From Narcine bancroftii (taxonomy: Eukaryota): a stretch of DNA of 64,000 nt. The DNA lies in contig NC_091470.1 in the NCBI RefSeq assembly GCF_036971445.1, positions 140,120,001-140,184,000 of the forward strand. Reading direction: 5' to 3'. This document shows, in pieces, positions 4,274-61,857 of this stretch (position 1 is its first letter; the number at the start of each line of letters is the position of its first letter). The notes beneath the pieces were generated by a model. It had not been told where the DNA came from. It searched no databases and saw only the letters and a list, made by a program, of their open reading frames with translations. The position numbers were made by a program, and so were the translations under genes.

Positions 4274-4301
4274 CTTTTTTGTATGACTGTTTATTACCGT
4301 G
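4274..4301 (+). other. D1 5' recombination signal sequence (12-RSS)
   Basis: Nonamer CTTTTTTGT (4274-4282), 12-bp spacer (4283-4294), heptamer TACCGTG (4295-4301). Confidence 0.92.
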
Positions 4302-4312
4302 GGGACAGGGGG
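4302..4312 (+). other. TRBD: TCR beta diversity segment D1 (GGGACAGGGGG)
   Basis: Matches the vertebrate-conserved D-beta core GGGACAGGGGG(C). Flanked by a 12-RSS and a 23-RSS. All three frames are open (GTG/GQG/DRG). Confidence 0.95.
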
Positions 4313-4351
4313 CACGATGTTGCGTTCCAATGTGGTCCCCGTACAAAAACC
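4313..4351 (+). other. D1 3' recombination signal sequence (23-RSS)
   Basis: Heptamer CACGATG (4313-4319), 23-bp spacer (4320-4342), perfect nonamer ACAAAAACC (4343-4351). Confidence 0.95.
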
Positions 4352-4708
4352 TCCCCCACGCTGGGGCCCGGCAGATCCGAAGCATCCGGTTATGGGCAGG
4401 GTTAACATCCTGCTCCCTGCTGTCACGATCTGTCCATGTCGAACACTCACTCCCATTCTGTCACCCTCTCCCCGTCCCGCTCTCATCCCCGTCTCCTCCT
4501 CTCTACCCCTCTCCCCGCTCTCTCCCCTCTCTCTGCTCTTTCACCCCGCTCTCTCACTCCTTCCTCCCCTCTCTCTTCCCCTCTCCCCTCTCTCTTTCTC
4601 TCTTTCTCCCCTCCGCCTCCTCTCGTCAATTTCTCTCTCCTCTGACTCTTTCTCTTTCTATCCCCTCAGTCTCCTGCAATTCCTTCCCCTCTCATCCATT
4701 TCTCTCTC

Positions 4709-9697: not shown

Positions 9698-9725
9698 CTT
9701 TTTTGTACCACTCTGTATCACCGTG
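9698..9725 (+). other. D2 5' recombination signal sequence (12-RSS)
   Basis: Nonamer CTTTTTTGT (9698-9706, identical to that of D1), 12-bp spacer, heptamer CACCGTG (9719-9725). Confidence 0.92.
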
Positions 9726-9739
9726 GGAACAGCGGGAGC
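9726..9739 (+). other. TRBD: TCR beta diversity segment D2 (GGAACAGCGGGAGC)
   Basis: 14-nt G-rich core between a correctly spaced 12-RSS and 23-RSS. All three frames are open (GTAG/EQRE/NSGS). Confidence 0.9.
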
Positions 9740-9904: not shown

Positions 9905-10710
9905 GGGGGGAGTGATCTGGTGGCTGTAGAGTAGAGGGACCTGGGGAGTGTTGTAGAGCAGAGGGAGCTGGGGGAGTGTTGTAGAGCAGAGGGATCTGGG
10001 GGAGTGTTGTGGTGCAGAGGGATCGTGGGGAGTGATGTGGAGCAGAGGGATCGGGGAGTGTTGTAGAGCAGAGGGATCTGCGGAGCGTTGGAGAGCAGAG
10101 GGATCTGGGGGAGTGTCGTGGAGCAGAGAGGTCTGGGGAGAATAGGGAACAGACGGGTCTGGGTATGTGTTGTTGAGCAGAGGGATCTGGCGGAGTGTTG
10201 TAGAGCAGAGGGAGCTGGGGGAGTCTCGTAGAGCAGAGAGACATGGGGAGTGTTGAAAATCACTGGGATCTGGTGGAATGCTGTAGAGCAGAGGGACCTG
10301 GAGAGTGTTGTAGAGCAGAGGGACCTGGGGAGAGTTGTAGAGCAGAGGGATCTGGGGGTCTGTCGTGCAGCAGTGGGATCCTGGGGAGTGATGTGGAGAA
10401 GAGAGATCTTGGGGAGTGTTGGAGAGCAGAGGGATCTGGGGGATTGTTGTAGAGCAGTGGGATCTGTGGAGTGTTGGAGAGTAGAGGGATCTAGGGGGAG
10501 TGTTGTAGAGCTGAGGGATCTGGGGGAGGGTTGTGGAGCAGAGGGGTTTGGGGGAGTGTTGTAGGGCAGAGGTGTCTGGGAAGGATGTTTGTTGAGCAGA
10601 GGTGGGTGTTGTAGAGGGATCCCGGGAGTGTGTTGTAGACGGGTCGGAGGGACGACTATTATAGAGGGTTTTGTGGTGTGTGTTGCTGAGCAGAGGGATT
10701 TGGGGAGAGC
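9905..10710 (+). repeat. ~29-30 bp G-rich minisatellite (GGGGAGTGTTGTAGAGCAGAGGGATCT)n between D2 and J1
   Basis: Directly visible tandem copies; the unit translates to the CR1 ORF2 motif SVVEQRDLG. Confidence 0.85.
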
Positions 10711-10823: not shown

Positions 10824-10873
10824 TACCTACAGCGAAGCATATTTCGGAGGTGGGACGAGACTGGTGGTGGTCG
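10824..10873 (+). CDS. TRBJ: TCR beta J segment J1 (TYSEAYFGGGTRLVVV) with upstream 12-RSS at 10796-10823
   Basis: FGGGT motif, heptamer CGTTGTG (10817-10823), 12-bp spacer, weak nonamer GGTTCGGAG, phase-1 donor G|GTGAGT. Confidence 0.93.
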
Positions 10874-22949: not shown

Positions 22950-23300
22950 ATACCTCCTTGCCGCTGAAGGACCCGAACGTGGTCCTGCTGCCGCCCTCTC
23001 TGCGCCAGTTGCAGGAGTGGCAACGGGCCTCGGCTGTGTGCGTCGTCAGCGGCTTCTACCCCGACAACGTCAGGATCATTTGGGCCATCGACGACGCAGA
23101 CCTGGCCGACAATGACACCAGGGTGCAGAGCGATGCCGAGTCGGTCAGCAGCGACGGAAACAGGACCTTCAGCATCGCCAGCCACCTCTACCTGTCCCTG
23201 GAAGATTACCAAAGAAGCAGACGACTGCGCTGCAAGGTGGACCACTACCAAAGTGGATCGAACCCCAAGAGGTTCGACGCCAGCGTTGACATCGACACGG
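22950..23300 (+). CDS. TRBC: TCR beta constant region exon 1 (Ig C1 domain)
   Basis: Acceptor CAG at 22947-22949, phase 1 matching the J donors. Sequence DTSLPLKDPNVVLLPPS..SAVCVVSGFYPDNVRIIW..FSIASHLYL..LRCKVDHY..DIDT has both Ig cysteines and the Trp. Donor G|GTAGGT. Confidence 0.95.
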
Positions 23301-24540
23301 GTAGGTGTCGAGTTTCCCCCTTTTCTGATGGGGTGCGCGGGGGAATCTAGATGAGCAGGGAACGTCGCACGTTGGAGCATAGAAGAGGCCCTTCGGCCCT
23401 CGATGTTGTGCAGACCCAACAACATACTCACCTGGCAATCCACCAGAGTTCCCAATATGCCCGTCTCAGGGTCATTTGCATGCCTCTAATATTCCATCCC
23501 TGGGGGGAATAAACATGCGCTCACTGTCCACTCCGCACCCCTGTCTATGCTTCTATCGACCCTCCTCCTGTCCTTCCCCATCCCGAAGAGAAACGTCCCA
23601 GCTCTGCTAACCTTGCCCTCGGGTGGTACGTCCACTGGCCTGGCCTCGTCCGTGGTGTTTTGCAATCCCTGGGAGCGTCCCCCAGCACTGCAAGGGGACG
23701 TTCACCCACTTCGGGGTTGTTGTAAATGCCCTGGGACCTCACTGACCCATCCCTTCCCTCTTCTCCGCCCGCTCCTGTCGAGATCCCGATGTAACTGCCC
23801 GCAACGCCTCTCCTAAGTCTCCACCCTGTCTGTATCCCGTTGAAACTTTCAACACTGTCCACAGCCCCTCTCTCCACTCCCTGTCCTGTCTGTATCCCGT
23901 TGTAACCTTCTACACCGTCGACAACCCCTCTCCCAACTCTCCATCCTGTATGCATCTTATAGGATGGACGTGGAAGCTATGGAGAGGGTGCAGGGTAGAT
24001 TCACTAAGATGTTTCCTGGATTGGAAAATAAGTCTCATGAGTGCAACGTCGGCAGAGCTGGTTCGTTTCCCTTTGGGGCGTAGAAGAATGAGAGCAGTCT
24101 TGATAGAGGGTCTACAAGAGGCGTAGAGAGGAGTGGAGAGTCAGCGCCTGTTTCCCGGGGAAGGAATAGCAAACACCAGAGGAGGTCGGTACATCCTGAA
24201 GGGAGGCATCAGGGATGAGGTTTTCTACCCAGAGAGTGGGTGCCCGGAAAGCCTTGGCGGGGAGGCTGGGAGGGGTCGTTTACAGGACCTCCATCCTAAT
24301 CTCCACGTGCCCTGTCCACGCCAGACCTGTTCTCCGCCCCAGCCGAAGAGCTTCACAGCTCTCCTGAGAGCAAGCCTGGAGGCCAATTCTCCTGGTCCCT
24401 GTCCACCCACCCGGTGGCCCGGTCGGGGCTGAATCCGTCAGTGCATTCCCAAGGCGCCTGACCGCGTTACTCCTAGCTGGTCAGTTCTCTCTCCTGCTGT
24501 TATAGATGCTCACTAAATGTCTTTATATTTGCTTTTGCAG

Positions 24541-24561
24541 ACACGTGCGGTTTAAGCAAAG
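24541..24561 (+). CDS. TRBC: TCR beta constant region exon 2 (hinge, DTCGLSK, interchain Cys)
   Basis: Polypyrimidine tract + TTTTGCAG acceptor, 21-nt phase-1/phase-1 exon, donor GTGAGT; typical TRBC mini-exon. Confidence 0.92.
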
Positions 24562-26091
24562 GTGAGTCCTCCAACCGCCCCTTATCCGTGACCCTGATAT
24601 GGCATCGACCACGATCATGGGAGCCGAAAGAGGCCACTCAGCCCATTGAGGCTGCCCCGCCAGTCAGTCATGAGCGCTCACACTCGTGGCGAACCACCGG
24701 TCACAGTATGAGCCACTCTTTTCCAATATAGTCCCCTCCAGAGCGGCGCCAGGCCCTTCAGCCCCTCGACTTCGTGGCGACCCAGATATTCATTACGACT
24801 CCTACCCTCTCAAACGCCCCTGATGTTCCACCCACCACCACCCCTCAGCAAGGCGTTCCGAGTCCTCACAGCTCTCTGCCTTGAAAAGAAACTCCCCTCC
24901 CTTCACTGCTCACTTGCTGCCCCCCCATCCCAAAGTGAGACACGTTCTCCAATCCCCTCGCGAGTCCTGTCTGCACCCTCTGCGCGGCTGCCCCGTCCTT
25001 ACCGCAACTGGGTGTCCTGAACTGAATAAGCTACCCCAGGTGATGTCTCACCAGAGGTTTGTCATTCTCTTGACTCATGAACCCGATCCCCAGCGTCGCC
25101 TCGGCCTTCTTGTCCACTCTGCCAACCTGTCCGATGACCTTGAGGAATGTATTGATTTGGACACCAGTGTCACTCGGTTCAACGACACCCTTAAGTAAGC
25201 AGCCATTAACCCTGTACTCGGCCTCAGGCTCGTCCTTCCAAAACGCATCACCACACACATCTCGAATCCAGTTGGCCACCCCGGTGTCTGAACCCGTGTA
25301 CTCTTCTTTGTATATTACAATCGGGGAAAAAGCCGACCGACGTTAACTCTGTCCGTCCCCCTCGTCATTTTAAATATCAAATCTCCCCCACATTCTTCGA
25401 CACTCCTGGGAACCTGTTTAACCTTTCCCTGTAACTCAGTCCCTGACGTCCGGGCAACATCCTAGTAAATCTTCAGGGGATAAAGTCCCGAACCTGTTGA
25501 AGTCCCTAAAACTCTGTCCCTGAACCACCTAGTAAATCTTCTCCGCCCTTTCTCTACCTGATTTGAGATCTGTCCTGTCGTTCGGTGACCAATACCTACA
25601 CACAATGCTCTCAATTTGCCCTCTTGTTCAACTTAACCAGAACGTCCTGGACTCGATGTTCTGATTTATGAAGGCCAATGTGCCAAACGCTCTCTCCTCG
25701 ACCCTGTCCCCACTTACAGGGAATGATGTCTCCGCGTTTCCCAGGTCCCTCTGTCCCACCGCACCCTTCAGGGCCCTGCCGTTCTCCTTCCGAAATGCCC
25801 TAGTCGGCATGAGATTCCATTAGCCCATATTCCTCTGGAAGCTTTGAAACCCCTTTCTCGACCCCCTTTACCCCGCCAACGTATACAGACGACAAACAGC
25901 ACGGTACGTACTACTGAGGTCAGGATCACCTCTGTCATTCACTGGGTGACATTGGCACATCGGAAAAACAGGATCCCCCGACAGTCCTGACCCACGTGTG
26001 AGACCAAATGAAAAATACCTGACGGAGGTGAAATCGCCCGCCCGTTCAAAGCTTTGCGTGTTAATATACCCCTGTGTTCTTCTCTTAACAG

Positions 26092-26198
26092 AGGATAAAT
26101 TACAAGCTATGGAAATTGGAAAACTGACCTATCTGATCCTTATTTGCAAAAGCCTCGTCTACGCCACCTTTGTGTCCGTTCTTGCCTGCAAAGCGAAG
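26092..26198 (+). CDS. TRBC: TCR beta constant region exon 3 (connecting peptide + transmembrane)
   Basis: EDKLQAMEIGKLTYLILICKSLVYATFVSVLACKAK carries the single TM Lys and the Y..L...K...Y antigen-receptor TM motif. Acceptor TTAACAG, phase-0 donor AAG|GTACGT. Confidence 0.95.
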
Positions 26199-26553
26199 GT
26201 ACGTCTGGGGTCGGCGGCGTTCGGACGCATCCGTGGACGGGACGGGTGTATTGAGACGCGGGACCGGATGGCGAGGAATGATCTGTGTCTGGACGGGTCT
26301 GGAGGGACGCGGGCCGCACGGCTCCGTGGACGCGACGGTCTTAGAGCAGGGGGGCGAGTTTACCTGAGGGGTGGGGCAGGTTCTTCCACACGAATGGTAG
26401 TGGGCGCCCGAAATGACGAGACTGCGGTTCCGGCCCAAGAATGGGCGTAGGGAGCCGAGATCCGGGCACCAGCGGGCCTGATCCCCGCACCCCATTTCCC
26501 CCTTCCACCAGGCGACCTCATCAATCCTTTTCCCCGTCTATCGTCCACTGCAG

Positions 26554-26580
26554 AACAGTTACCACAAGCGATTCGACTGA
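26554..26580 (+). CDS. TRBC: TCR beta constant region exon 4 coding part (cytoplasmic tail NSYHKRFD-stop)
   Basis: Acceptor CTGCAG at 26548-26553, in phase with exon 3; TGA at 26578-26580. Short SYxKRFD tail as recalled for cartilaginous-fish TCR beta. Confidence 0.9.
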   Translation, partial: NSYHKRFD

Positions 26581-26740
26581 AGAGATGAGGGCAAGAGTTT
26601 GTTTGAGCCGCCGGAGTTGAAGGAGATGATGAAGGAGATTCTCCCACCAACTCCTCCTGAATTCATGCTGATTTCAAGATTTCGTAAATTCGTGATTTTT
26701 TTTTTGTTCATGTTTGTAAGATTTCAGGAGATTTTATGAT

Positions 26741-26746
26741 ATTAAA
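26741..26746 (+). terminator. Possible polyadenylation signal ATTAAA for TRBC
   Basis: Variant hexamer ~160 nt after the stop, followed by T-rich sequence; unverified. Confidence 0.35.
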
Positions 26747-26984
26747 TTTTCAGTTTTCAGATTTTAAAATTCCGTAATTTTATCGTTATTTTCTATCCGT
26801 TCATGATTGCATGATTTCGTGATTCCAGTTCCCGATTCAACGATCTCGTGACGTGTTGACACTCCTGCCCGTGGATCGACCCGATTATTTTTTTAACAGT
26901 CAAGATCAAATCTGCATTCCCCATTTCATGCCATACCCCCACCCGCTCTCTCTCCCCTGAAAGCGATAACCAGTACATTCAGTT

Positions 26985-27997: not shown

Positions 27998-29721
27998 TCT
28001 CTCTCTCCTTTTTCTCACTGTCGGTATGTCTTTCTCTCTCCTCCTCTTTCTCCATCTTCCTCTACCCCTATCTCTCTCACCTTTCTTACTCGCTCTCCCT
28101 CTACCTTTCTCTCTCTCCCTCTCCACACTCTCTTTCTCTCTTTTTTCTCTCCCCCTCTCTCTTTCTCTTCCCCCTCTCTCCCATCGATTCTCCCTTTCTC
28201 CCGCTCTCCTTCTCTCTCCCTCTTTTTCTCTCTCTCTTTCTCTCTCTCCCATCACCTCTCGCACCCCCTCTCTCTTTCTTTCTCTCTCCTCCCCCCCACC
28301 ACGTTCAGGAAGTCTAACCCCAGAGGGTCCCATTTTGAACGTGAGAAAGGAGGGGGAGATTTAATGTTAAACGTCCTGTTACACCCAGAAAAAAAATATT
28401 TCAGCAGGAGCTACCGCGTTTTTACTGTTGCTGATGAACAGGTTTCACGTCCGGTGTTTGTTTGAATCAAATAGAAAAGATGGGGGGGGCGGGGGATGAC
28501 AGGGAGGAAGACAGAGATAGAGAGAGAGCGGGAGGGAGGGAGAGAGTGTGAGGGAAGGAGAGAGAGGGAAAGAGGGGAAGGAGGGTGAGAGTAAGAGAGG
28601 GAGAGGGAGATAGAGGGAGAGACAGAAAGTTAATGGAGGGGGAGTGAGACAGAGGGAGAGGGTGACAAGGAGATATAGAGGGATTGATAGAGAGACCGGA
28701 GAGAGAGGCAGAGAGAGGGAGAGAGTTAAAGGGAGTGAGAGAGAGAGAGAATAGACAGAGAGTGGGAGGGAAGAGAGAGAGAGAGAGGGTAAAAGTGGGA
28801 GAGATGAGAGGGGTGGAAGAGAGGGAATGTTGAGGTATGCTGGGAGAGTGGAGAGAAGGAGGGTGGAGGGAGTGAGAGAGGGGGAGAAGTGAGAACGAAA
28901 TATGGAGAGAAAGAGAAAAGGGGCAAGGAGGAGGGGGCGTGGATGGTTGGATGGGGGTGTGAAAGAGGGAAAGAGAGGAAGTGAGACATAAGGTGAGGGA
29001 GAGAAAGTCAATTCATGTCCAACCCAACAGAACTGCGTTCTCCGGTCATCAGTACAAAACACTCAGAAATAAGACACGTAGAAACATAGCACAGGGCACG
29101 GATAACATCCACACTAATAAATAGATATATATGGCTTCCTGGGTATCAGGGCAACGGGTGGTTAGTGTATGAATTTCCTATGGGGGAGAGAGATGTGGAA
29201 AAGAGAGGAGACAGAGAGATATCGAGTGAGGATGATAGGGGAGAGAGATGGGGAGGGGGGAGAGACGGGGGAGAGAGGAGAAGGGGAGGGGACAGGAGGA
29301 GAGAAGGGGAGAGCAGGGGAGAGAGAGACGTAGAGAAAGGGGGAGAGAAGGGAAAGAGAGGCAGAGAGAGGGGAAAGAGGGGGAGAGGGAGGATGTGAGA
29401 GGGAGTGGGGTGGGAGAGGGGCGAGGAGATAAAGTGGAGAGAGTGGAGAGAAGGTCGAGAGAAAGAGTGGAGAGGGGAATAGAGTGGGAAGAGTGGGGGA
29501 GAGAGGAAATAGGGAGAAAGAGGAGAGAGTGGGGTGAGAACAGGGAGAGAAGGGGAGGAGAGAAAGTTTGAGATAGAAGAATTAGAGTTGATGAGAAGGA
29601 GCGAATGGGAAGAGAAGGGGAGAGGGAGAGGGGGAGTGAGGGAGATAGATGGGAGAGAGGGGAGACAGAGGGAGAGTGAGAGAAGAGGGAGGGGAGAGGG
29701 GGAGAGAAGGGAGAGGGAGGG

Positions 29722-29962
29722 GCAGTGCCACGAAAGCCAGAACCACAACACCGGCTGCCCCGGTGTCAGAGACTCCACAGGATGTGGTTGGAACCAAAGT
29801 TTTCTGCAAATTTCCGCTTCAACGTGTCGAGCACAGGTTGCCATGTAGGTCAGGATGTTCCAGGCTGTGTCTGTGGTCAGGCAGGAGGATGTGACAGTAT
29901 GTGTGGGGGAGACAGAGATCTCGGTTTACAGCGTCAACACCAGCTGCTCACTGCACCTGCAC
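29722..29962. promoter_or_regulatory. Candidate TCR beta 3' enhancer (E-beta-like)
   Basis: Unique island between low-complexity tracts. Motifs: RUNX AACCACA (29741-29747), ETS-RUNX composite ACAGGATGTGGTT (29777-29789), ETS CAGGATGT (29851-29858), RUNX TGTGGTC (29872-29878), GAGGATGTG (29885-29893), E-boxes CAGCTG (29941) and CACCTG (29954). Lies ~3.1 kb 3' of the C stop. Confidence 0.65.
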
Positions 29963-30578
29963 TCTCAACCCTCTCCTCCCCTCTCCCCTTCCCTCTCTCT
30001 CCCTTCTCTCCCCATCTTCCCCCTTTCCACCTTCACCCCCTCTCCGCCTCTAAACACTCTCTCCCCACTCTATCCTCTCTCCTCCTCTCTTCGCTCTCTC
30101 TCCCCTCCCCTCTTTTTTCCCTCTCTCCCAACTCTCCCCTTCCCATCTCTCCCCCTTTCCCTTCTCCCATTCTCTCCCCCTCTCCCATTCCCTCCCCTCT
30201 CCCACTCTTTCCTCCTCTCCTGCTCTCTTCTCCTCTCCCACTCTCTCCTCCTCTCCAGCTTTCTCCTCCTCCTTTCCCACTCTCCCTACTTTCTCCACTC
30301 TCTCTCCACTCCCTCCCCTCTCTCCCTCTCTATCCCACTCTCTCTCTCCTCTCTCCTCTCTCCCCTCTCTCTCCCCCTCGTCCTAATCTGCACTTTCTCA
30401 CCCTCTCTCCTCCTCTCTCCTGCTTTCTTCCCCACTATGTCCCCCTCTCTACACCCTCTCTGAATCTCCCCTCTCTCTCCCTCCCCTATCCCCACTATCT
30501 CTCACTCTTTAACCCTCACTCTCCAATTATCTCTCCCATCTACACCACCATCTCATCTTCTCCCCCCCTCTCTCTCTC

Positions 30579-30614
<36 letters not shown>

Positions 30615-33600
30615 CCCCTCTCTCCCACTCTTTGCCACCCTCTCCACCACTCTCTTCCTGTCTCCTACTCTTTCTTTCCCACTCTCCACCTCTCTGTCCC
30701 ACTCTCCCCTCCTCTCTCACCCTCACACCCTCTCTTGGCCACTCTCTCCCCTCTCTCCTCCTCTCTTGCCCTTTCTATTACCCTCTGTCCCCCTCTATCT
30801 CACCCTCTCTCAACCCCCCTCTGTCCCCCTCTCCACCTTTCTCTTCCTCTATCTCTCCTCTCTCTCTCCCTCCCTCTCCCCATCTCACTCCCTCTCTCCC
30901 CCTCACCATCACACACAATCTCTCCTCCTCTCTCACCCCTCTCTCTACTCTCTGTCTCCACATCTCATTCCCTCTCCCCTCTCTCACACACTCTCTCTCC
31001 CTCCCTCCTCTCTTGCACTCTCTCCCCCTCTCTCCTCTTTGCACCCATTTTATTTTCCCCTCTCTTTCCCCCTCACCCTCTCCTGCCAACTCTCTCCACC
31101 ACCTCTCCCCATTAACCTCCCCTCTCTCTCCCCATAAACACATTACCACCCCCCACATACCCTTATAAATAAACCTTCTCACATACAAACTTACTCATAA
31201 ACACCCCCAACACACATCCACTTACAAACATAAACAACCCCCCCCCCACACACATACACTTACACTAAAGCGGGCCTCCACAAACATACATTTGTACATA
31301 AACATCCCCCACACATAAACTTACACATAAACACCCACCACACACATACACAGACATACACACCCCCACACATAGACTTACACATAAATACACCCTACAC
31401 ACATGCATGTACACATAAACACGCCATGCACACATACACTTAAACATAAACACCCCCACACACATTCACATACATATAAACACCCCCACACACATACACT
31501 TACACATAAATACCACCCACATGTAGACTTACACATAAATACCCCACACACATATGACCTTACACATAAACAACCCCACATAGACACACATAAATAACCC
31601 CCACACACATGCACTTACACATGAACATGCCCCACAAACATACACTTTCACATAAACACACCTACATCCATTTGCACATAATCACCCCCACACACATACA
31701 CTTACACATACCCCCCACTCCACACATACACTTAGACATAAACACGCCACAAACACACATACACATATACATAAACATCCCCATCACAAACACATACACT
31801 TACACATTATCATCCCATTCATACATTCACACTTACATAAAAATCCCCACACCTATACATTTAAACATAAACACCACCCACAGATATAAACATCAAACAC
31901 ACACTAACACTTACACGTTAAAACCAGACACTTACACATAAACACCCCCAAACATACCCATACACATTAAAACCGCCCCACATATACACATACACATAAA
32001 CAATCCCCACACACATACACCTACGCTAAAACACCCCCCACACACATACACTTATTCATTAAGACATCTCTATTCAGACGATTACACATAACCACCCCCA
32101 AACGAACATACCCTTACACATAAACATCCCCCAAACACCATACACCTACATATATACAATGCCCCACACACAAACACATACATGTAAAAATCCCCCACAC
32201 ACTTAAGCAAAAACACCCACACACACAAAAACGTACACATAAGCTCCCACAATACACATACACATACATAAACACAACCCAATATCCATACACTTAGACA
32301 TAACACACACCACACCCATACACGTATACATAAACAAACCCCCACAAACCTACACTTTGACATACACAACCCCACACATATACACAAACGCATAAACAAG
32401 CCCCACACACATATATATACACATAAACACCCCCATACATACACTTACTCATAAACACCCCACCGCACACATGCATTTGAACATAAACATCCCTCACACA
32501 CATAAACTTACACATAACACCCTGCTCTGCACATACACATAAACACCCCCCACACACATACACTTATACATAAACAAACTCTCTTACACATGCACTTACA
32601 CATAAACACGTCCCCACACGCATACCCTTATACACAAACACCCCACCATACAAATGTATATGAACATAAACACCCCTCACACACATACACACCGCACACA
32701 CATACGCTTAAACATAAAACCCCCCACACACGTACACTTACACATAAACACCACCCTACGTACAGACACCTACATATAAACACCCCACACACATATGCAC
32801 TTATAAATAAACATACCCCCCTACACATGCACTTACACATAAACACCTCCACACGCACATACTCTTATATGTAAAAACACCCCACACACACATACAGTTA
32901 CATAAAAAACCCCAAACACTTACACACACATCACACACATTAACATCCACACAAACACAAACGTACATATAAATAGACACCACATATATATACACTTACA
33001 GATAAACACCATCACAAACTCACATACACATAAACACGCCTACACACATACATGTAGTCATGAACAACACCTACAAACATACACTTACACATAAACAATG
33101 CCCCACAAACATACACGTAGACGTACACACTCCTCATCACAGATACACCTACATATAAACACCCACCATACAGAGATGTACACATAAATACACCCCATGC
33201 ACATGCACTTACACAAAAATACCCACATACACATAAACATACACATAAACACCACCAGACACCTATAAACATACACGTAAACACCCGCCACGCCCATGCA
33301 CTTACATATAAACAAACTCCTTCAAACCTACATTTTGACATACCCACCCCCACACACATACACAAAGACATAAACAACCTCCCCACATATACATTTACAC
33401 ATAAACACACCCCGCACACACATACATTTACACTTAAACACCCTCAAAAAAACATATACACTGTTAAAAGCATCACACACATACACTTACACATAAACAG
33501 CACCCACACTTACATACACTTACACATAAACACCCCCACAACATAGACCTACACATAAATACACCCAAACACATGAACCTACACCTAAACAATCCCACAC

Positions 33601-35738: not shown

Positions 35739-38700
35739 TCTTCTATGGCTTGGCTTCCCAGACATAGATTTATGGAGGGGTAATGTCCATGTCAGCTGCA
35801 GGCTCGTTTGTGGCTGACAAGTCTGATGTGGGACAGGCAGACACGGTTGCAGTGGTTGCAAGGGAAAATTGGTTGGTTGGGGTTGGGTGTTGGGTTTTTC
35901 CTCCTTTGTCTTTTGTCAGTGAGGTGGGCTCTGCAGACTTCTTCGAAGGAGGTTGCTGCCCGCTGAACTGTGAGGCAGCAAGATGGACGGTTTGAGGCGA
36001 TATCAGCCCAATGGCGGTGGTCAATGTGGCAGGCACCAAGAGATTTCTTTAGGCAGTCCTTGTACCTCTTCTTTGGTGCACTTCTGTCTCAGTGGCCAGT
36101 GGAGAGCTCGCCATATAACACGATCTTGGGAAGGCGATGGTCCTCCATTCTGGAGACGTGACCTACCCAGCGCAGTTTGATCTTCAGCAGCGTGGATTCG
36201 ATGCTGTTGGCCTCTGCCATCTCGAGTACTTCAATGTTGGAGATGAAGTCGCTCCAATGAATGTTGAGGATGGAGTGGAGACAACACTGGTGGAAGCGTT
36301 CTAGGAGCCGTAGGTGATGCCGGTAGAGGACCCATGATTTGGAGCTGAACAGGAGTGTGGGTATGACAACGGCTCTGTATACGCTAATCTTTGTGAGGTT
36401 TTTCGGTTGGTTGTTTTTCCAAACTCTTTTGTGTAGTCTTCCAAAGGTGCTATTTGCCTTGGCGAGTGTGTTGTCTATCTCGTTGTCGATCCTTGCATCT
36501 GATGAAATGGTGCAGCTGAGATAGGTAAATTGGTTGACCATTTTGAGTTTTGTGTGCCTGATGGAGATGTGGGGGGGCTGGTAGTCATGGTGGGGAGCTG
36601 GCTGATGGAGGACCTCAGTTTTCTTTAGGCTGACTTCCAGGCCAAACATTTTGGCAGTTTCTGCAAAACAGGACGTCAAGCGCTGAAGAGCTGGCTCTGA
36701 ATGGGCAATTAAAGCGGCATCGTCTGCAAAGAGTAGTTCACGGACAAATTGCTCTTGTGTCTTGGTGTGAGCTTGCAGGCACCTCAGATTGAAGAGACTG
36801 CCATCCGTGCGGTACCTGATGTAAACAGCGTCTTCATTGTTGAGGTCTTTCATGGCTTGTTTCAGCATCATGCTGAAGAAGATTGAAAAGAGGGTTGGTG
36901 CCAGAATGCAGCCTTGCTTCATGCCATTGTTAATGGAGAAGGGTTCAGAGAGCTCATTGCTGTATCTGACCTGACCTTGTTGGTTTTCGTGCAGTTGGAT
37001 AACTATGTTGAGGAACTTTGAGGGGTATCCGAGGCGCTCTAGTATTTGCCAAAGCCCTTTCCTACTCACGGTGTCGAAGGCTTTGGTGAGGTCAACAAAG
37101 ATGATGTAGAGTCCTTTGTTTTGTTCTCTGCACTTTTCTTGGAGCTGTCTGAGGGCAAAGACCATGTCAGTAGTTCCTCTGTTTGCGCGAAAGCCACACT
37201 GTGATTCTGGGAGAACATTTTCGGCGACATTAGGTATTATTCTATTTAGGAGAATCCTAGCAAAGATTTTGCTTGCAATGGAGAGCAGCGTGATTCCCTT
37301 GTAGTTTGAGCAGTCTGATTTCTCGCCTTTGTTTTTGTACAGGGTGATGATGATGGCATCATGAAGATCCTGAGGCAGCTTTCCTTAGTCCCAGCAGACC
37401 TTGAAAAACTCATGCAGTTTGGCATGCAAAGTTTTGCCACCAGCCTTCCAGACCTCTGGGGGGGATTCCATCCATACCTGCTGCTTTGCCACTTTTCAGT
37501 TGTTCAATTGCCTTATATGTCTCTTCCCGGGTGAGGACCTCATCCAGCTCTAGCCTTAAGGGCTGTTGAGGGAGCTGGAGCAGGGTGGATTCTTGGACTG
37601 AGCGGTTGGCACTGAAGAGATTGGAAGTGTTCTGACCATCGGTTGAGGATGGAGATCTTGTCGCTAAGGAGGACTTTGCCATCTGAGCTGTACAGCGGGC
37701 TTTGGACTTGGGGTGAGGGGCCATACACAGCCTCGTAAAAACCCCTGAAGTCGCCAATGTCCACGCTGAGCTGGGTTCGTTTGGCGAGGCTAGTCCACCA
37801 CTCATTTTGGATCTCCTGGAGTTTGCGCTGAAGATGGCTGCATGCGTGATGGAAGGCTCGTTTCATCTCTGGCCAGGACGGCTTTGCAAGGTGAGCCTGG
37901 TGGGCAGCTCACTTCTTTGCCAGGAGCTCCTGGATTTCCTTGTTGTTTTCGTCGAACCAGTCCTTGTTTTTCCCTGGAGGAGAAGCCCAGTACCTCTTCG
38001 GTGGATTGCAGTATGGCAGTCTTCAGCTGATCCCAGAGGGTTTCGGGGGATGAGTCCGTGAGGCAGATTGCATCCTCAAGCTTTGCTTTGAGGTTTGCCT
38101 GGAAGTTTCCTCTCACTTCATCTGACTGCAAGCTTCCAACATTGAACCTCTTTCTGGGGGATTTACTGTTCCTGGACTTTGGCTTGAAGTGAAGGTTGAG
38201 CTTGCAGCGAACCAGCCGGTGGTCAGTGTGACATTCCGCACTGGGCATGACCCTGGTGTGGAGCACATCTCGTTTGTCTTTTTCTCATACCAGGACATAG
38301 TCCAGGAGGTGCCAGTGTTTGGATCAGGGATGCATCCAGATAGTCTTTAGGCTGTCCCTCTGCTGAAAAAGGATGTTTGTAATGACAAGCCACTGTTCTG
38401 CACAGAGCTCCAACAGGAGACGCCCATTGTCGTTGCACTTGCCGACACCATGCTTGCCCAGGATTCCTGGCCAGGTTTCTGAGTCTTTATCGACGCAAGC
38501 ATTGAAGTCGCCAAGGATGACAACCTTGTCAGCTGTAGGGGTGCGTTGATGAGGTTGCACAGATCAGTGTAGAACTTGTCCTTTTCTGCTGGTTCCACCT
38601 GGAGGGTTGGAGCATAGACACTGATGAGGGTGATGCGACGCTTGTTTTGAAGGGGGAGTCACATGGACATGATCTGGTCCAAGTGGCCTGTCGGGAGGTT

Positions 38701-39240
38701 TTCGAGTTTGGAGGCAATGGAGTTCTTGACCATGAAGCCTACACCAGATAGGCATCGTTCATCCATAGGCTTGCCAGACCAGTAGAGTGTGTAGCCCGCG
38801 CCGCGTTCTTGGAGGCTGCCTACATCTGCAAGGTGGACTTCACTGAGAGCGGCTATGTCGATGTCAAGTCTGAGGAGTTCATGTACGATGAGGGCAGACC
38901 GACGTTCAGGTCGGTGGCTGTCAGCCTTGTCCAGCATGGTTCTGATGTTCCAGCATGCTAGCTTGAGTTTGTGAGCATCTTTTGAGGGGGAGGACGTGGA
39001 GGGGGAGGATGTGGACATATCCTCGGGCCTGCGCAAAGGAGCTTTTAGGTGGAGTGCAGTGTGCGCAGTACTGGCCCCACCCTTTACACCCATGGTTCGT
39101 ATGCTGTGGCCAAGCAAGCTGGGACGTGGCAGCAAGGTCCTTGGGTCGTAGGTTTTATATCGGAGTGGCCTTCTCCTATGCAGGTTGCTTACGCGGGCTG
39201 GAGGGGCCTGCCTCCCCTCCTAGGTTGGACCATACCTGGT
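35739..39240 (-). mobile_element. Near full-length RTE-clade (BovB-like) LINE, APE endonuclease + RT, frameshifted
   Basis: Endonuclease motifs [31 protein letters not shown] and CHTDHRLVRC; RT motifs FVDLTKAFDTV..GMKQGCILAPTLF..LLFADDAAL. The 5' boundary is approximate. Confidence 0.92.
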
Positions 39241-39399
39241 CGCAAATCAGCTGTGTACATGGCCTAGGTAAGTTTAATTGGGTTCTCTAACTATCTCTGA
39301 GGTAGGTCAGGGACCCGGTTGGATTCTGACGGGGTTGACCGAGTCACACCCTTTCTTACTGCTGTGTAACTGGGGTGTAAAATGTAAAAAGCTAGGGGG

Positions 39400-39960
39400 A
39401 GGCGGCAGTCCCGGCCTCGACAGAGTGGAGCAGTTGGAAGCCCCGGTCCGGGCAGAAAGAAGGAGGCGGCAGCCCCGGTCCGGGCACAGGGAAGGCGGCG
39501 GCGGCCCCACCCCCTGTCCGAGCAGAAGGTAGGCAGCGGCGGCCCCGATCCAGGCAAAAGTGAGGGGGAGGTGGTGGCCCCGGCCTTGGTAGAGCAAAGC
39601 AGGTGGAGGCCCCGATCCAGGCAGAAAGAAGGAGGAGGCGGCCCTGGTCCGGGCACAGGGAAGGCGGCGGCGGCCCCGGCCCCAGTCCAAGCAGAAGGTA
39701 GGTGGCGGCGGCCCTGATCCGGGAAAAAGCGAGGGGGAGGTGGTGGCCCCGACCTCAGTAGAGCGAAGCAGGCGGAGGCCCTGGTCCGGGCAGAAAGAAG
39801 GAGGCGGTGGCCCCGGTCCAGGCACAGGGACGGTGGCAGCGGCCCCGGCCCCAATCCGAGCAGAAGGTAGGTGGCGGCGGCCCCGATCCGGGAAAAAGTG
39901 AGAGGGAGGCGGCAGCCTCGGGCTCGGTAGAGCAAAGCAGGCGGAGGCCCCTGTCTGGGC
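39400..39960. repeat. GC/CpG-rich ~170-bp tandem array (~3.3 copies)
   Basis: Unit starting CC.GGTCCGGGCAGAAAGAAGGAGGCGG recurs at ~39441, ~39611 and ~39779. Confidence 0.8.
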
Positions 39961-48211: not shown

Positions 48212-50901
48212 ACAGAAATACAACCTACACACATATTCTTACACATAAACAATCCCCCAGAAACATACACTTAGACATACACACGCCCCACACACATACG
48301 CAAACACATAAACAACCCACACATACACTAACACATAAACAACACCCAAACGTAGATGTACACTTATATACCCCTCACGCATATGCACTTACACATAAAC
48401 AACCCCCACACACAAACACATAAACTTAAACCTAAACACTCCCAATAACATATACCTTTACTCATAAACACCTACAATTACATATAAACAAACATCATAC
48501 ACATACTCTTAAAACACTCCCGACATATACACTTAACATAAAAATCACCCACAATCATACACCTACACATAAACACACCCAACACATACACTTACACATA
48601 AACACCGACTGTACACACACATACACCTACTCCATACATACACATGAATAAACACAAGTCAAACTCACATACACTTGCAGTATAACACCCGATCACACAC
48701 ATACACTTACACATAAACACTCTCCACACAAATACACTTACTCATAAACAGCAACCACATACATACACCTAAACATAAACACCCTTCACATAAACATACA
48801 CTTGCACATATACACCCCCACACACATACAATTATACATAAACACCCTCCCACACACATATACCTACACATAAACACCTCACACACACACAAAAACATAC
48901 ATGAACACATCTCCACATACATACACTTACACTTAACACCATCCAACAAACACAAACACTTACACAGAAACATATCCCCCACTCACACATACACTTACTC
49001 ATAAACACCCACCCAAAATATACACTGACACAAAAACACCCTCCACACACATACACATAAAGACACCCACACACAACCAACCACAACCCACACACATAAA
49101 CCTAGAAATACGCAACCCCACACACAAATACACATACACATAAACACACTCATGCACATACACTTACGCAAAAACAACTCCCAACACACATACACCTACA
49201 CATAAACACAACTCCACACACACCTAACCACACCCCACACAGATACATTTGCACATAAACACACCAGACACACACACACATTTTTTAAACACCCTGCACA
49301 CACATACACTTACACAACAAAAACACCTGCATGCATAAAAATACACATAATCACCACACAAACATACACTTACACATCTTCACCCCCCACCACACAATAA
49401 CTTATACATAAATACCTCTAAACTGACATACAATTATAAATAAAGACCCCCACACACATACACTTACATATAAACACTCCCCACACACATACACTTAAAC
49501 ATAATATACCCCATATACATTTACACCTAAACATCACCCACAAACATACACCTACACTTAAACACCCCCAACATATATACTTATTCATAAACACCCAACC
49601 ACACACACATACACGCACATAAACACCCTCCACACAAATACTTACACATAACCCCAACACACACACATACACTTAAATATAAATGCCCCGCACCTACATA
49701 CACTTAAACAAAAATACACACCCACACACATACACTTACACATAAACACTCACTGCACACATACACATACACTTATACTTAAACAACCCCACATAAAAAT
49801 ACACATAACCCCACCAACCACACATATACTTCCAGATGAACACACCCCGAACACAAACATTTTCACTTAACACCATCGCACAAAAATGGACACTTACATA
49901 TAAACCCCCACCAGACACACATACACCTACACATAAAAATATGCCCACATACACTTAGACATAGACACCATTTGCAAACAAATACTTACACGTAAACACT
50001 CCCCACACACATACATTTACAACTAAATACCTCACCACACACATATACTTACTCATGAACACCCCCACACACACACACTTACAAATAAACTCCCCCCACA
50101 CACATACACTTACAAGTAAACGCCCCCACATACGTATACATACATATAAACACCGCCCACAAACATACACTTACACATAAACACTCCCCACACTCATACA
50201 TATGCAAATAAATACCGTGCCACACACATACACTTACTCATGAACACTCACCCACACACATACACATACAAATATACACCTACCATTCACATACACTTAC
50301 ACATACACAACCCCGACACACATAAACTTTCACATAACCACCCCCCACCATTCACATACACTTACACTTAAACACACACACACACACATATTCACTGGGT
50401 CATAACCAACACACACACACACACAGATGCATCGACATATATAAACCGTACACACATGCACATACAATAAACTAACCCACAGAAATATACACTAAGACAT
50501 ACACACCCAACAAACACATAAACAAACACATAAACAACCCGACACATATAGATAAACACATACATACCCCCACGCATATGTACTTACACATAAACACACC
50601 CTGCACATATTCACTTACACATAAACACCGCCCCACACACATACACTTACATATACTCTTGCACCACACAACACATACACTTACTCATAAACACAACCGA
50701 CACATACACTTACACATAAACACCGACGGTACACACACATACACCTACACATAAACACCCTACTCCACACATACTCATGAATAAACACCCTTCAATCACA
50801 CATACACTTACATTTAATTGCACCCACACACATTCACTGGGACATAAACATGCCCCACATACATATACGTTAACATAAATACCCCCTACAAACATATACT
50901 T

Positions 50902-52728
50902 CTTTCTTTGGCTTGGCTTCGCGGACGAAGATTTATGGAGGGGGTAAAAAGTCCACGTCAGCTGCAGGCTCGTTTGTGGCTGACCAGTCCGATGCGGGAC
51001 AGGCAGACACGATTGCAGCGGTTGCAAGGGAAAATTGGTTGGTTGGGGTTGGGTGTTGGGTTTTTCCTCCTTTGCCTTTTGTCAGTGAGGTGGGCTCTGC
51101 GGTCTTCTTCAAAGGAGGCTGCTGCCCGCCAAACTGTGAGGCGCCAAGATGCACGGTTTGAGGCGTTATCAGCCCACTGGCGGTGGTCAATGTGGCAGGC
51201 ACCAAGAGATTTCTTTAGGCAGTCCTTGTACCTTTTCTTTGGTGCACCTCTGTCACGGTGGCCAGTGGAGAGCTCGCCATATAATACGATCTTGGGAAGG
51301 CGATGGTCCTCCATTCTGGAGACGTGACCCATCCAGCGCAGCTGGATCTTCAGCAGCGTGGACTCGATGCTGTCGACCTCTGCCATCTCGAGTACCTCGA
51401 CGTTAGGGGTGTGAGCGCTCCAACGGATGTTGAGGATGGAGCGGAGACAACGCTGGTGGAAGCGTTCTAGGAGCCGTAGGTGGTGCCGGTAGAGGACCCA
51501 TGATTCGGAGCCGAACAGGAGTGTGGGTATGACAACGGCTCTGTATACGCTTATCTTTGTGAGGTTTTTCAGTTGGTTGTTTTTCCAGACTCTTTTGTGT
51601 AGTCTTCCAAAGGCGCTATTTGCCTTGGCGAGTCTGTTGTCTATCTCATTGTCGATCCTTGCATCTGATGAAATGGTGCAGCCGAGATAGGTAAACTGGT
51701 TGACCGTTTTGAGTTTTGTGTGCCCGATGGAGATGTGGGGGGGCTGGTAGTCATGGTGGGGAGCTGGCTGATGGAGGACCTCAGTTTTCTTCAGGCTGAC
51801 TTCCAGGCCAAACATTTTGGCAGTTTCCGCAAAGCAGGACATCAAGCGCTGAAGAGCTGGCTCTGAATGGGCAACTAAAGCGGCATCATCTGCAAAGAGT
51901 AGTTCACGGACAAGTTTCTCTTGTGTCTTGGTGTGAGCTTGCAGGCGCCTCAGATTGAAGAGACTGCCATCCGTGCGGTACCGGATGTAAACAGCGTCTT
52001 CATTGTTGGGGTCTTTCATGGCTTGGTTCAGCATCATGCTGAAGAAGATTGAAAAGAGGGTTGGTGCGAGAACACAGCCTTGCTTCACGCCATTGTTAAT
52101 GGAGAAGGGTTCAGAGAGCTCATTGCTGTATCTGACCCGACCTTGTTGGTTTTCGTGCAGTTGGATAATCATGTTGAGGAACTTTGGGGGACATCCGATG
52201 CGCTCTAGTATTTGCCAAAGCCCTTTCCTGCTCACGGTGTCGAAGGCTTTGGTGAGGTCAACAAAGGTGATGTAGAGTCCTTTGTTTTGTTCTCTACACT
52301 TTTCTTGGAGCTGTCTGAGGGCAAAGACCATGTCAGTGGTTCCTCTGTTAGCGCGAAAGCCGCACTGTGATTCTGGGAGAATATTCTCAGCGACACTAGG
52401 TATTATTCTATTTAGTAGAATCCTAGCGAAGATTTTGCCTGCAATGGAGAGCAACGTGATTCCCCTGTAGTTTGAGCAGTCTGATTTCTCGCCTTTGTTT
52501 TTGTACAGGGTGATGATGGTGGCATCACGAAGATCCTGAGGCAGTTTACCTTGGTCCCAACAAAGCTTGAAAAACTCATGCAGTTTGGCATGCAGAGTTT
52601 TGCCGCCAGCCTTCCAGACTTCTGGAGGGATTCCATCCATACCTGCTGCTTTGCCACTTTTCAGTTGTTCGATTGCCTTATATGTCTCATCCAGGGTGGG
52701 AACCTCATCCAGCTCTAGCCTTAGGGGC
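50902..52728 (-). mobile_element. 5'-truncated RTE-clade LINE with uninterrupted RT ORF
   Basis: ORF 50958-52937 is open across the element from PLRLELDEV to the C-terminal C..C zinc finger (FPCNRCNRVCLSRIGLVSH); AAG/AAAG tail at 50902. Confidence 0.95.
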
Positions 52729-55700
52729 ACATAAGCAAACACCCACAAACATACACTTAGAAATACACATCCCATACACACATACACAAACACATAAACA
52801 AACTCCACACACATACACTTACAAATAAACACCCCTCCACACACACACATAAACTTACTCATAAACACCACACACATGCATGCAATTACACATACACACA
52901 CCAAACACATACACTTACACATCAATACACACCACACACATACATTTACGCATAATCACCCCCCAATAACACATACACTTACAGATTAACACCCCCCACA
53001 CACATACACAGACTTACTCATAAATACCCCTCACACATACACTTAAACATAATCATCCCCACACATATATACGTACGCCTAAACAGCTCCCACACTCATA
53101 CACCTAAACATGAACACACCCCCAAACACATACACATATACATAAACACCCCCAACATAAACATGAACTTACAGATTATCACCCCACACACACACATTCA
53201 CTTACACATAAACATCCCCCCCACACACATATACTTGTATATAAACACGCTCCACACACATACATTTACAAATAAATGTCCTGCTACACACATAAACCTG
53301 CACAATAACACACTATCACACACATACACTTACACATAAACAACCCCACCAATATGTACTTACATATAAACACACCCCGCATATATTCACTTACACATAA
53401 ACACTGGCCCACACACATACACTTACATACACTCTTACACCACACAACACATACATTTACTCATAAACACAACCGACACATACACTTACACATAAACAAC
53501 GACAGTACATACACATACACTTACACATAAACACCGACCGTACACACACATACACCTACTCCATACATACACATGAATAAACACAAGTCAAACTCACATA
53601 CACTTGCAGTATAACACCCGATCAAACACATACACTTACTCATAAACAGCAACCACATACATACACCTAAACATAAACACCCTTCACATAAACATACACT
53701 TGCACATATACACCCCCACACACATACAATTATACATAAACACCCTCCCACACACATATACCTACACATAAACACCTCACACACACAAACACATACATGA
53801 ACTCACCTCCACATACATACACTTACACTTAACACCACCCTACAAACACAAACACTTACACAGAAACATATCCCCCACTCACACATACACTTACTCATAA
53901 ACACCCACCCAAAATATACACTGACACAAAAACACCCTCCACACACATACACATAAAGATCTCCACACACAACCAACCACACCCCACACACATACACCTA
54001 GAAATATGCAACCCCACACACAAATATACATACACATAAACACACCCATGCACATACACTTACGCAAAAACAACTCCCAACACACATACACCTACACATA
54101 AACACAACTCCACACACACATAAACACACCCCACACAGATACATTTGTACATAAACACACCAGACACACACACACACATTTTTAAACACCACGCACACAC
54201 ATACACTTACACAACAAAAACACCTGCATGCATAAAATACACATAATCACCACACAAACATACACTTACACATCTTCACCCCCCACCACACAATAACTTA
54301 TACATAAATACCCCTAAACTGACATACAATTATAAATAAAGACCCCCACACACATACACTTACGTATAAGCACTCCCCACACACATCAACTTAAACATAA
54401 TATACCCCATATACACTTACACCTAAATATCACCCACAAACATACACCTACACTTAAACACCCCCAACACATACACTTATTCATAAACACCCAACCACAT
54501 GCACATACATGCACATAAACACCCTCCACACAAATACTTACACATAACCCCAACACACACACAAACACTTAAATATAAATGCCCCGCACCTACATACTCA
54601 AACAAAAATACACACCCACACACATACACTTACACATAAACACCCACCGCACACATACACTTATACTTAAACAACCCCACATAAAAATACACATAACCCC
54701 ACCAACCACTCATATACTTCCAGATGAACACACCCCGAACACAAACACTTTCACTTAACACCATTGCAAAAAAATTGACACTTACATATAAATCCCCACC
54801 AGACACACATACACTTACACATAAAAATATGCCCACATACACTTAGACATAAACACCATTTGCAAACAAATATTTACACGTAAACACTCCCCACACACAT
54901 ACATTTACAACTAAATACCCCACCACACACATATACTTACTCATGAACACCCCCCCACACACACACTTACAAATAAACTCCCCCCCCACACACATACACT
55001 TACAAGTAAATGCCCCCACATATGTACACATACATATAAACACCGCCCACAAACATACACTTACACATAAACACTCCCCACACTCATACATATGCAATTA
55101 AATACCCTGCCACACACATACACTTACTCATGAACACTCATCCACACACATACACTTACAAATATACACCTACCATTCACATACACTTACACATACACAA
55201 CCCCGACACACATAAACTTTCACATAACCACCCCCCACCATTCACATACACTTACACTTAAACACACACACACACATATTCACTGGGACATAACCAACAC
55301 ACACACACACACAGATGCATTGACATATATAAACAGTACACACATACACATACACATAAACTAACCCACAGAAATATACACTTAGACATACACACCCAAC
55401 AAACACTTAAACAAACACATAAACAACCCCACACATATAGATAAACACATATATACCCCCACGCATATGTACTTACACATAAACACAACCGACACATACA
55501 CTTACACATAAACACCGACAGTACACACACATACACCTACACATAAACACCCTACTCCACACATACTCATGAGTAAACACCCCTCAATCACACATACACT
55601 TACATTTAAATGCACCCACACACATTCACTGGGACATAAACATCCCCAACACACATATACGTTAACATAAATACCCCCTACAAACATATACTTACACATA

Positions 55701-60982: not shown

Positions 60983-61857
60983 TGTCTTGGGTAAACTTAT
61001 ACCTCTCATTTTGTTCGTTTTAGATTGGTCACAGTGTTTGAGCTACCGAAAGAAACTTTATATGTGGATATGTTGTGTGTGTGGGTGGGTGTTTATCTGT
61101 AAACATACAATTACACATAAAACCCTCCCACACACATACACCTACACATAAACACCCCTCCACACACACATACAATTGAACATAAACACCCCCATACACC
61201 TACACTTACACATTAACTCACCCCACACACATACTCTTAAAACACTCCCCACATATACACTTACACATAAACACACCAAGTCCAGTTCAGTTTATACAAG
61301 GCTTTATTACTAAATCTAAAGCTGAATTCACACTACCATATGCAAGCCCTTCCCAATTATACTTATCAATGCCTGGACAGGTCCTAATTGCCGAAGCGAG
61401 GCAATGACTGCACACTTGTAGTAGGTTGTCGGAGCGCCGGTAGCAGCTTCTCTACCTCCCTTGACCGGGACGTTAGCTGGACTCTTGAAGTTCTTCTTCT
61501 TGCTGAGAGATGTTGCCACATCTTGGAGAGTCTCAAACTTCAGCAGTGGGACCATGGCTTATTTACCCAAAAGTTGTTTACTGCAGATCTTATCTCTTTG
61601 AACAAATGATTTAATTATTTTCAAGGTCTCCTGACTGCAACCAACAAAAGACAACTGCATCTCTGGGCCTCATGGTGGAAGTTGGATGTCTACTGATTCA
61701 TATGCACCCCTGGGCCCCATGGTGGAATTTAGTGTGTGTACTAATTCATATGCAACAAGCAGGTTCTCAGCCTTGGCTACAAAAGTAATAAACATGGTTT
61801 AAATCTTCCATTACATTCAACCCCTTGGTCGCAGCCTGTCATTTATGTGACCTTACA
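60983..61857 (-). mobile_element. Probable solo LTR, interrupted by ~200 bp of satellite
   Basis: TG...CA termini (TGTCTT at 60983, CTTACA ending 61857); AATAAA on the minus strand (TTTATT at ~61303). No clear TSD. Confidence 0.45.

What the first reader, a model, noticed from the sequence alone, without database searches (positions are those of the whole stretch)
29722..29962. Candidate E-beta enhancer retaining the mammalian-type ETS-RUNX composite site
Seen: a ~240 bp complex island embedded in kb-scale simple repeats, 3 kb downstream of C. It holds three RUNX sites, three GGATGT ETS cores and two E-boxes, including ACAGGATGTGGTT. Established: the mammalian TCR beta enhancer lies a few kb 3' of C-beta and its core depends on ETS-RUNX composites of the form CAGGATGTGGTT. 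Inference: position and motif grammar may be conserved from the jawed-vertebrate ancestor.
Basis: partly seen in the sequence, partly recalled or inferred. Interest (0 to 1): 0.75.

Follow-up and report, generated by a model that had tools for sequence, protein, structure and literature searches.

The report
Candidate ray TCR-beta enhancer, duplicated
A 240-base non-coding island 3 kb behind a cartilaginous fish's T-cell receptor beta gene carries the exact ETS-RUNX binding site of the human enhancer of that gene and keeps it in a second, old copy of the locus, so it is likely the fish's T-cell switch for this gene, though activity and descent from the mammalian enhancer's ancestor are untested.

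Summary
Observation confirmed. The island (29722-29962) holds three RUNX sites, three GGATGT cores, two E-boxes and one CAGGATGTGGT, the 11-mer published for the human TCR-beta enhancer. It lies 3.1 kb behind the stop codon of an intact TRB D-J-C cluster and is not a dispersed repeat. New here: the genome has a second, head-to-head TRB cluster with an 84%-identical island 5.3 kb behind its own C gene. Four inverted V segments follow that copy, matching the mammalian order C, enhancer, inverted V. Overall the island is no better conserved than the introns (16% divergence each). Within it, substitutions avoid the listed motifs (2 of 47 against 35 of 182, P=0.007; 0.037 without CpG). Five of seven motifs survive; one RUNX site and one GGATGT do not. 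Against strict membership: only one perfect composite (mammals have two), no GATA site, no alignment to mammalian or other fish sequence, and no activity data. The scan noted similar candidates earlier in a shark and two skate-like genomes (unchecked; no sequence look-alike found). Verdict: likely a T-cell enhancer working like E-beta (0.7); common descent about 0.45.

The parts
29722..29962 (.). Candidate TRB 3' enhancer island; unique sequence, found only at the TRB clusters
29778..29788 (+). ETS-RUNX composite CAGGATGTGGT, identical to the published human TCR-beta enhancer site; lies in a 16-bp run identical in both clusters (29777-29792)
29742..29747 (-). RUNX site, kept in cluster B (13-bp identical run 29735-29747)
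29885..29895 (+). Second, degenerate ETS-RUNX-like site GAGGATGTGAC (10 of 11 to the published TCR-alpha enhancer site; RUNX half off consensus), kept in B (14-bp run)
29853..29858 (+). GGATGT core, lost in cluster B (one substitution beside an 11-bp gap)
29872..29877 (+). RUNX site, lost in cluster B (first base changed)
29811..29818 (-).
29941..29946 (.). E-box CAGCTG, kept in B
29954..29959 (.). E-box CACCTG/CAGGTG, kept in B
28368..28465 (.). Second unique non-coding block shared by the TRB clusters (86% identity), 1.3 kb upstream of the island; possible accessory element
29190..29721 (+). Purine-rich simple-repeat flank (a similar tract is present in B)
29963..31040 (+). Pyrimidine-rich simple-repeat flank (a similar tract is present in B)
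22950..23300 (+). TRBC exon 1 (Ig C domain), AG/GT bounded
24541..24561 (+). TRBC exon 2 (21 nt, with Cys)
26092..26198 (+). TRBC transmembrane exon (with the intramembrane Lys)
26554..26580 (+). TRBC cytoplasmic exon to the stop codon
4302..4313 (+). D-beta 1, GGGACAGGGGGC, between 12- and 23-spacer signals; the vertebrate-conserved TRBD sequence
9725..9739 (+). Second D segment with signals, shared with cluster B
10828..19275 (+). Four J segments with FGxG motifs starting at 10843, 11878, 13256 and 19240

Best explanation
The island is a unique, motif-dense non-coding element 3.1 kb behind an intact TRB D-J-C cluster and is likely the T-cell enhancer of that cluster, predicted to work like mammalian E-beta. 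Shown: the locus, the motifs, a second copy in the same position behind the other TRB cluster, and preferential retention of the motifs between the copies. Inferred from mammalian work: ETS1 (or a related ETS factor) and RUNX1/CBF-beta would bind the CAGGATGTGGT site cooperatively, helped by the upstream RUNX site, the second GGATGT site and E proteins on the two E-boxes. They would recruit CBP/p300, loop to the D-segment promoters 20-25 kb upstream, and open D-J chromatin for germline transcription and RAG recombination. Each duplicated V-D-J-C cluster would then carry its own enhancer.
For: (1) The locus is TRB: conserved D-beta 12-mer, four J segments, an intact four-exon C, and V segments whose single-chain PDB hits are mostly TCR-beta chains (one V tested). 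(2) The 11-mer equals the human TCR-beta enhancer site (PMC2787013). It occurs 3 times in the 520 kb read, all three in this island's copies, and has about a 0.8% chance per 10 kb genome-wide. (3) Position: mouse E-beta lies about 6 kb and bovine about 8.7 kb 3' of the last C; here 3.1 kb in A and 5.3 kb in B. (4) Not a dispersed repeat: 3 matches from 3 candidates, all at TRB, while the neighbouring island 29000-29190 gave 40 matches (40 of 108 candidates scored). (5) Paralog test: listed motif columns carry 2 of 47 substitutions against 35 of 182 elsewhere (Fisher P=0.007; non-CpG columns only P=0.037; 4 of 240 circular shifts as low; random blocks P=0.007). The motif list came from copy A alone. 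(6) Of 20 other genomic 13-mer sites, none had more than 1 extra RUNX/ETS site; A has 4 and B has 2. (7) In cluster B the island lies between C and four inverted V segments, as mouse E-beta lies between C-beta2 and V-beta31. (8) The shark Runt domain is almost fully conserved (PMC3974841).
Against: Whole-island divergence between A and B (0.162) equals that of three alignable intron blocks (0.156-0.161) and the D flank (0.155), so the island as a whole shows no excess conservation. At that divergence an 11-mer survives by chance about 15% of the time. Two of seven listed motifs are lost in B. There is only one perfect composite, where mammalian E-beta has two; the second site has an off-consensus RUNX half. 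No GATA site in A or B, whereas it is conserved in mammals. Only one independent paralog pair was tested, and gene conversion may have shaped it. No inverted V was found within 174 kb 3' of copy A. No cross-species sequence or activity data.
Confidence: 0.7

Rival explanations
1. The island is neutral unique DNA carried along when the TRB cluster duplicated, and the motifs are a chance cluster noticed afterwards.
For: Island divergence equals intron divergence. The 11-mer has 2723 copies in the genome. E-boxes and loose RUNX sites are not enriched over shuffles. GGAGGATGTG also occurs in the purine flank at 29388. The island was chosen by eye.
Against: The literature-defined 11-mer sits within 3.2 kb of the C stop. 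Substitutions avoid the motif columns (P=0.007; 0.037 without CpG). The cluster is denser than 20 of 20 control sites. Most sequence between the 3' UTR and the island does not align between A and B, while this island and one other block do.
Confidence: 0.18
2. It is a functional ETS-RUNX element but not the main E-beta equivalent: an accessory enhancer working with the 28368-28465 block or another element, or a general haematopoietic enhancer.
For: One perfect composite only and no GATA site. A second shared block lies 1.3 kb upstream. ETS/RUNX composites occur at many T-cell enhancers. CAGGAAGTGGT also occurs near the inverted V segments.
Against: It holds the only exact CAGGATGTGGT in the 520 kb read. 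Mammalian TRB relies on one known 3' enhancer. About 30 kb of satellite follows copy A, with no gene seen in the stretches read, so a neighbouring gene's promoter is unlikely.
Confidence: 0.1
3. The island is a relic of a transposon, a small RNA gene or an unannotated exon.
For: A weak Rfam hit (MIR1858, 33 bits against a cut-off of 137) spans the island and its flanks.
Against: The hit is far below threshold and takes in the GA/TC flanks. Only TRB-linked copies exist. The long open frames are low-complexity read-through, and an 11-bp gap separates A from B.
Confidence: 0.02

Closest known systems
Mammalian TCR-beta enhancer E-beta (mouse betaE1-6, human Tbeta2-4; PMC2787013, PMC5288706, PMC13639285, PMC2685407)
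   Same: A few kb 3' of C-beta; exact CAGGATGTGGT composite; several RUNX and ETS sites plus E-boxes within about 240 bp (bovine conserved core 187 bp, mouse core 560 bp); in cluster B it lies between C and inverted V segments.
   Different: One perfect composite instead of two; no GATA site; CRE half-site not kept in place; one element per D-J-C cluster in two head-to-head clusters, where mammals have one enhancer for tandem clusters; homology not tested by alignment; no function shown.
TCR-alpha enhancer E-alpha (single composite GAGGATGTGGC, PMC2787013; PMC7696796)
   Same: A single composite a few kb 3' of a C gene; the island's second site matches this sequence at 10 of 11 bases.
   Different: The locus is TRB, not TRA; no TCF/LEF match in the island.
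Mouse TCR-gamma enhancers, one behind each C-gamma (PMC7696796) and salmonid TRB1/TRB2 loci in opposite orientation (PMC10464911)
   Same: Precedent for one enhancer per duplicated cluster, and for opposed TRB loci on one chromosome.
   Different: E-gamma uses MYB-RUNX composites and no MYB match was found here; the salmonid paper has no occurrence of 'enhancer'.

Membership tests
E-beta (TRB 3' enhancer) | Lies a few kb 3' of a TRB constant gene | tested here: met
   3.1 kb (A) and 5.3 kb (B) behind the stop codon; TRB identity
E-beta (TRB 3' enhancer) | ETS-RUNX composite CAGGATGTGGT | tested here: met
   29778-29788, identical in B
E-beta (TRB 3' enhancer) | Two composite ETS-RUNX sites (betaE4 and betaE6) | tested here: inconclusive
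   One perfect site; the second, GAGGATGTGAC, is conserved in B but its RUNX half misses the YGYGGY consensus; binding not testable
E-beta (TRB 3' enhancer) | E-box (kappaE2-type, betaE3) | tested here: met
   Two E-boxes kept in A and B; not enriched over shuffles; the CAGGTG pattern is recalled
E-beta (TRB 3' enhancer) | GATA site (betaE1/Tbeta2), conserved in mammals | tested here: not met
   No WGATAR (recalled consensus) in A or B (mammalian conservation)
E-beta (TRB 3' enhancer) | CRE element (betaE2) | tested here: inconclusive
   One TGACG half-site in each copy but at different places
E-beta (TRB 3' enhancer) | Between C-beta and an inverted 3' V segment | tested here: inconclusive
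   Met for cluster B (four inverted V, 17-25 kb beyond); none found within 174 kb 3' of A using three V families as queries
E-beta (TRB 3' enhancer) | Alignable sequence homology to mammalian E-beta | not testable with these tools
   Full sequence not in the texts or supplements searched; four primary papers not held
E-beta (TRB 3' enhancer) | T-cell-specific enhancer activity required for D-J recombination | not testable with these tools
   No chromatin, reporter or knock-out data available
Dispersed repeat | Many unlinked genomic copies | tested here: not met
   3 matches, all at TRB clusters; a control island nearby gave 40; the tool warns that counts are lower bounds

The most novel reading that the evidence does not exclude
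The island descends from the same ancestral element as mammalian E-beta. The ETS-RUNX switch that opens the TCR-beta locus, and the order C, enhancer, inverted V, would then date to the last common ancestor of jawed vertebrates. In this ray each of two opposed V-D-J-C clusters would carry its own copy, a natural test case for how beta-chain exclusion works with two independently switched loci.
Probability: 0.45. Interest if true: 0.7.

Novelty: new member of a known kind. Interest (0 to 1): 0.52.

Why it matters
Five library searches (listings only) turned up no description of a TCR-beta enhancer in a cartilaginous fish. If the element is active, it gives a 240-bp testable sequence for asking whether the T-cell regulatory code of V(D)J recombination is as old as the receptors themselves. 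The duplicated pair already shows which sites were kept (composite, upstream RUNX site, second GGATGT, both E-boxes) and which were lost. That bears on the question left open in PMC13639285 of what E-beta needs beyond its ETS/RUNX motifs, including the untested role of E proteins.

Tried and rejected
Cross-species test through sequencing runs: one search with window 22930-26700 (DNA, WGS) listed no run; this is no evidence, and no reads could be laid. Look-alike searches in the scan's index with copy A, copy B and the wider locus found no related stretch (one search returned one unrelated note sharing 4 of 180 words). A PDB search with the C domain alone did not identify the chain: the best 60 of 5232 hits were nearly all immunoglobulin domains, so TRB identity rests on D, J, V and exon layout. 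The third island copy (B') was rejected as independent evidence: it is identical to B over 239 of 239 bases, its flanks differ by about 0.3%, and it begins at a 200-N gap. Whole-island conservation was rejected as evidence because it equals the intron background. E-box number and loose RUNX count were rejected as enrichment. The Rfam hits are all far below their gathering scores. The mammalian E-beta sequence was not found in the main texts or in the supplements held for PMC5288706 and PMC2685407; figures are not held, and the bovine-human-mouse alignment is such a figure.

Full report
Observation. The island has balanced composition between a 90% purine tract and a 90% pyrimidine tract. In 20000 dinucleotide shuffles, three GGATGT had P=0.0001, three TGTGGT P=0.010 (0.092 for TGYGGY), the 11-mer P=0.0004 and the E-boxes P=0.22; 0 of 20000 had three of both RUNX and GGATGT. 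These values are post hoc. The fairer figure uses the literature-defined 11-mer: 2723 copies in 3.33 Gb, about 0.8% per 10 kb. The 13-mer has 115 copies.

The locus. The window is G000:C5:140120001-140184000. It holds D1 GGGACAGGGGGC at 4302 with recombination signals, the TRBD sequence reported as conserved across vertebrates (PMC11754216 passages; PMC6170632 passage). A second D lies at 9725, four J segments follow, and a four-exon C gene has intact splice sites and frame. The C domain alone did not identify the chain by PDB search; one V segment from the region hit mostly TCR-beta chains among single chains. The genome search found two close C exon-1 matches (100% and 97%) among 31 hits; the rest were 29-36%, and the four I translated look like immunoglobulin domains. 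That the animal is a ray comes from earlier scan notes on this genome (unchecked).

A second cluster. A search with the island gave 3 matches from 3 candidates, all on C5; a control island 500 bp upstream gave 40 dispersed matches. Reading 520 kb around the window (maps in 53, 54, 57) showed two head-to-head V-D-J-C clusters. Cluster A (plus strand) is the window's. Cluster B (minus strand) has a D, three J matches, a C gene, the island 5.3 kb behind its stop, and four inverted V segments 17-25 kb further on. A third island copy, B', belongs to a duplicate of B's 3' side that starts at a 200-N gap and is identical to B across the island. It may be an uncollapsed haplotype or a very recent duplicate and was not counted as independent. 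No inverted V was found in 174 kb 3' of A; about 30 kb of satellite follows it.

Paralog test. A and B differ by 4% in C exon 1, 7.6% in the next intron block, 15.6-16.1% in three further intron blocks, 15.5% around D2, 25% in the transmembrane exon (16 of 35 third positions) and about 31% in the start of the 3' UTR. The island differs by 16.2%. As a whole it is therefore no more conserved than the introns, a result against the reading, although it is more conserved than the nearer TM exon and UTR, and the gradient suggests gene conversion at the 5' end (inference). Inside the island the seven motifs listed from A alone carry 2 substitutions in 47 columns, against 35 in 182 other aligned columns (Fisher P=0.007; 12 gap columns set aside, P=0.0008 if counted). 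Without CpG columns P=0.037; 4 of 240 circular shifts of the mask were as low; random placement gave P=0.007. Kept: the upstream RUNX site, the composite, GAGGATGTGAC and both E-boxes. Lost: GGATGT 29853 and RUNX 29872. As a further control I took 20 of the 112 other 13-mer sites (about every fifth of the 100 listed): 15 had no extra RUNX or ETS site in an island-sized window and 5 had one, against 4 in A and 2 in B.

Mechanism. In mammals E-beta lies about 6 kb 3' of the C-beta2 unit and before the inverted V31 (PMC8016127 passages; PMC13639285 passages and section 14). It has two composite ETS/RUNX sites bound cooperatively by ETS1 and RUNX1 (PMC7696796 outline, section 9 and first part of section 10). 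Mutating both RUNX sites abolishes activity, while one site leaves partial activity (PMC5288706, part 1 of 4). The human site is given as CAGGATGTGGT, and ETS1 knock-down removes RUNX and CBP from it (PMC2787013 passages). The shark Runt domain is almost fully conserved (PMC3974841 passages). I infer that the island would be bound the same way, loop to the D promoters and open D-J chromatin. None of these steps is shown for this animal.

Comparison and membership. Met: position, exact composite, E-boxes. Inconclusive: second composite, CRE, inverted V (true for B only). Not met: the GATA site that is conserved among cow, human and mouse (PMC2685407 passages). Not testable: alignment to mammalian E-beta, and activity. 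I therefore file it as working like E-beta, not as a proven orthologue. Inverted 3' V segments are described for amniotes, salmonids and some amphibians and cited as a shared feature of the beta and delta loci (PMC12227049 passages); whether these four belong to that clade was not tested. PMC10464911 and PMC4856961 were seen as passages. The GATA, CRE, kappaE2, MYB and TCF patterns are recalled, not from a call.

Novelty. Five searches (listings only) showed no paper on a chondrichthyan TCR-beta enhancer; the library lacks most subscription papers. The scan itself noted similar candidates in three other genomes, a shark and two skate-like fish. These are unchecked AI notes, I could not see their sequences, and no sequence look-alike was returned, so they are a lead for the cross-species test and not support.

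Noticed in passing
G000:C5:139.89-140.15 Mb (L014-L036 and window 1-30000): Two head-to-head TRB V-D-J-C clusters, each with its own V array, C gene and 3' island.
   Followed up: partly
L036 and L037; G000:C5:139889558-139897371: Four inverted V segments of one family 17-25 kb 3' of cluster B's island, like the 3'-inverted TRBV of amniotes; the fourth lacks the conserved Trp.
   Followed up: partly
G000:C5:139960504-140028068 against 139854001-139922083: Duplicate of B's 3' side (97-99.7% identical by block) ending at a 200-N gap: an uncollapsed haplotype, or a third cluster whose 5' half is in the gap.
   Followed up: partly
window 28368-28465: Second unique block shared only by the TRB clusters (86%), 1.3 kb upstream of the island, with forkhead-like words (recalled pattern); function unknown.
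   Followed up: partly
window 22950-26760 against cluster B: Identity falls from 96% (C exon 1) through 92% and 84% (introns) to 75% (TM exon) and about 69% (UTR), a gradient suggesting gene conversion at the 5' end; the TM exon ends LACKAK in A and LVWKAK in B.
   Followed up: partly
window 3480-4708: D1 sits, like the enhancer candidate, in a unique island between a purine tract and a pyrimidine tract.
   Followed up: no
cluster B, G000:C5:139.924-139.964 Mb: No copy of D1 or of the fourth J was matched in cluster B; only D2 and three J segments.
   Followed up: no
window 9925-10602 and L018-L019: A 28-bp minisatellite between D2 and J1 spans 0.7 kb in A and about 5 kb in B.
   Followed up: no
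G000:C5:139890240 and 139892744: CAGGAAGTGGT, the other ETS-RUNX composite form, lies in purine-rich spacers about 1.8 kb upstream of two inverted V exons.
   Followed up: no
window 31180-61000: About 30 kb of CA-rich 31-bp satellite interrupted by two related insertions (about 35740-39400 and 50900-52730) that read like non-LTR retrotransposons; labelled by reading only.
   Followed up: no
window 61280-64000: Start of an LTR-retroelement or provirus-like insertion; observed only.
   Followed up: no
window 29000-29190: Fragment of a dispersed repeat inside the purine tract, absent from cluster B.
   Followed up: yes
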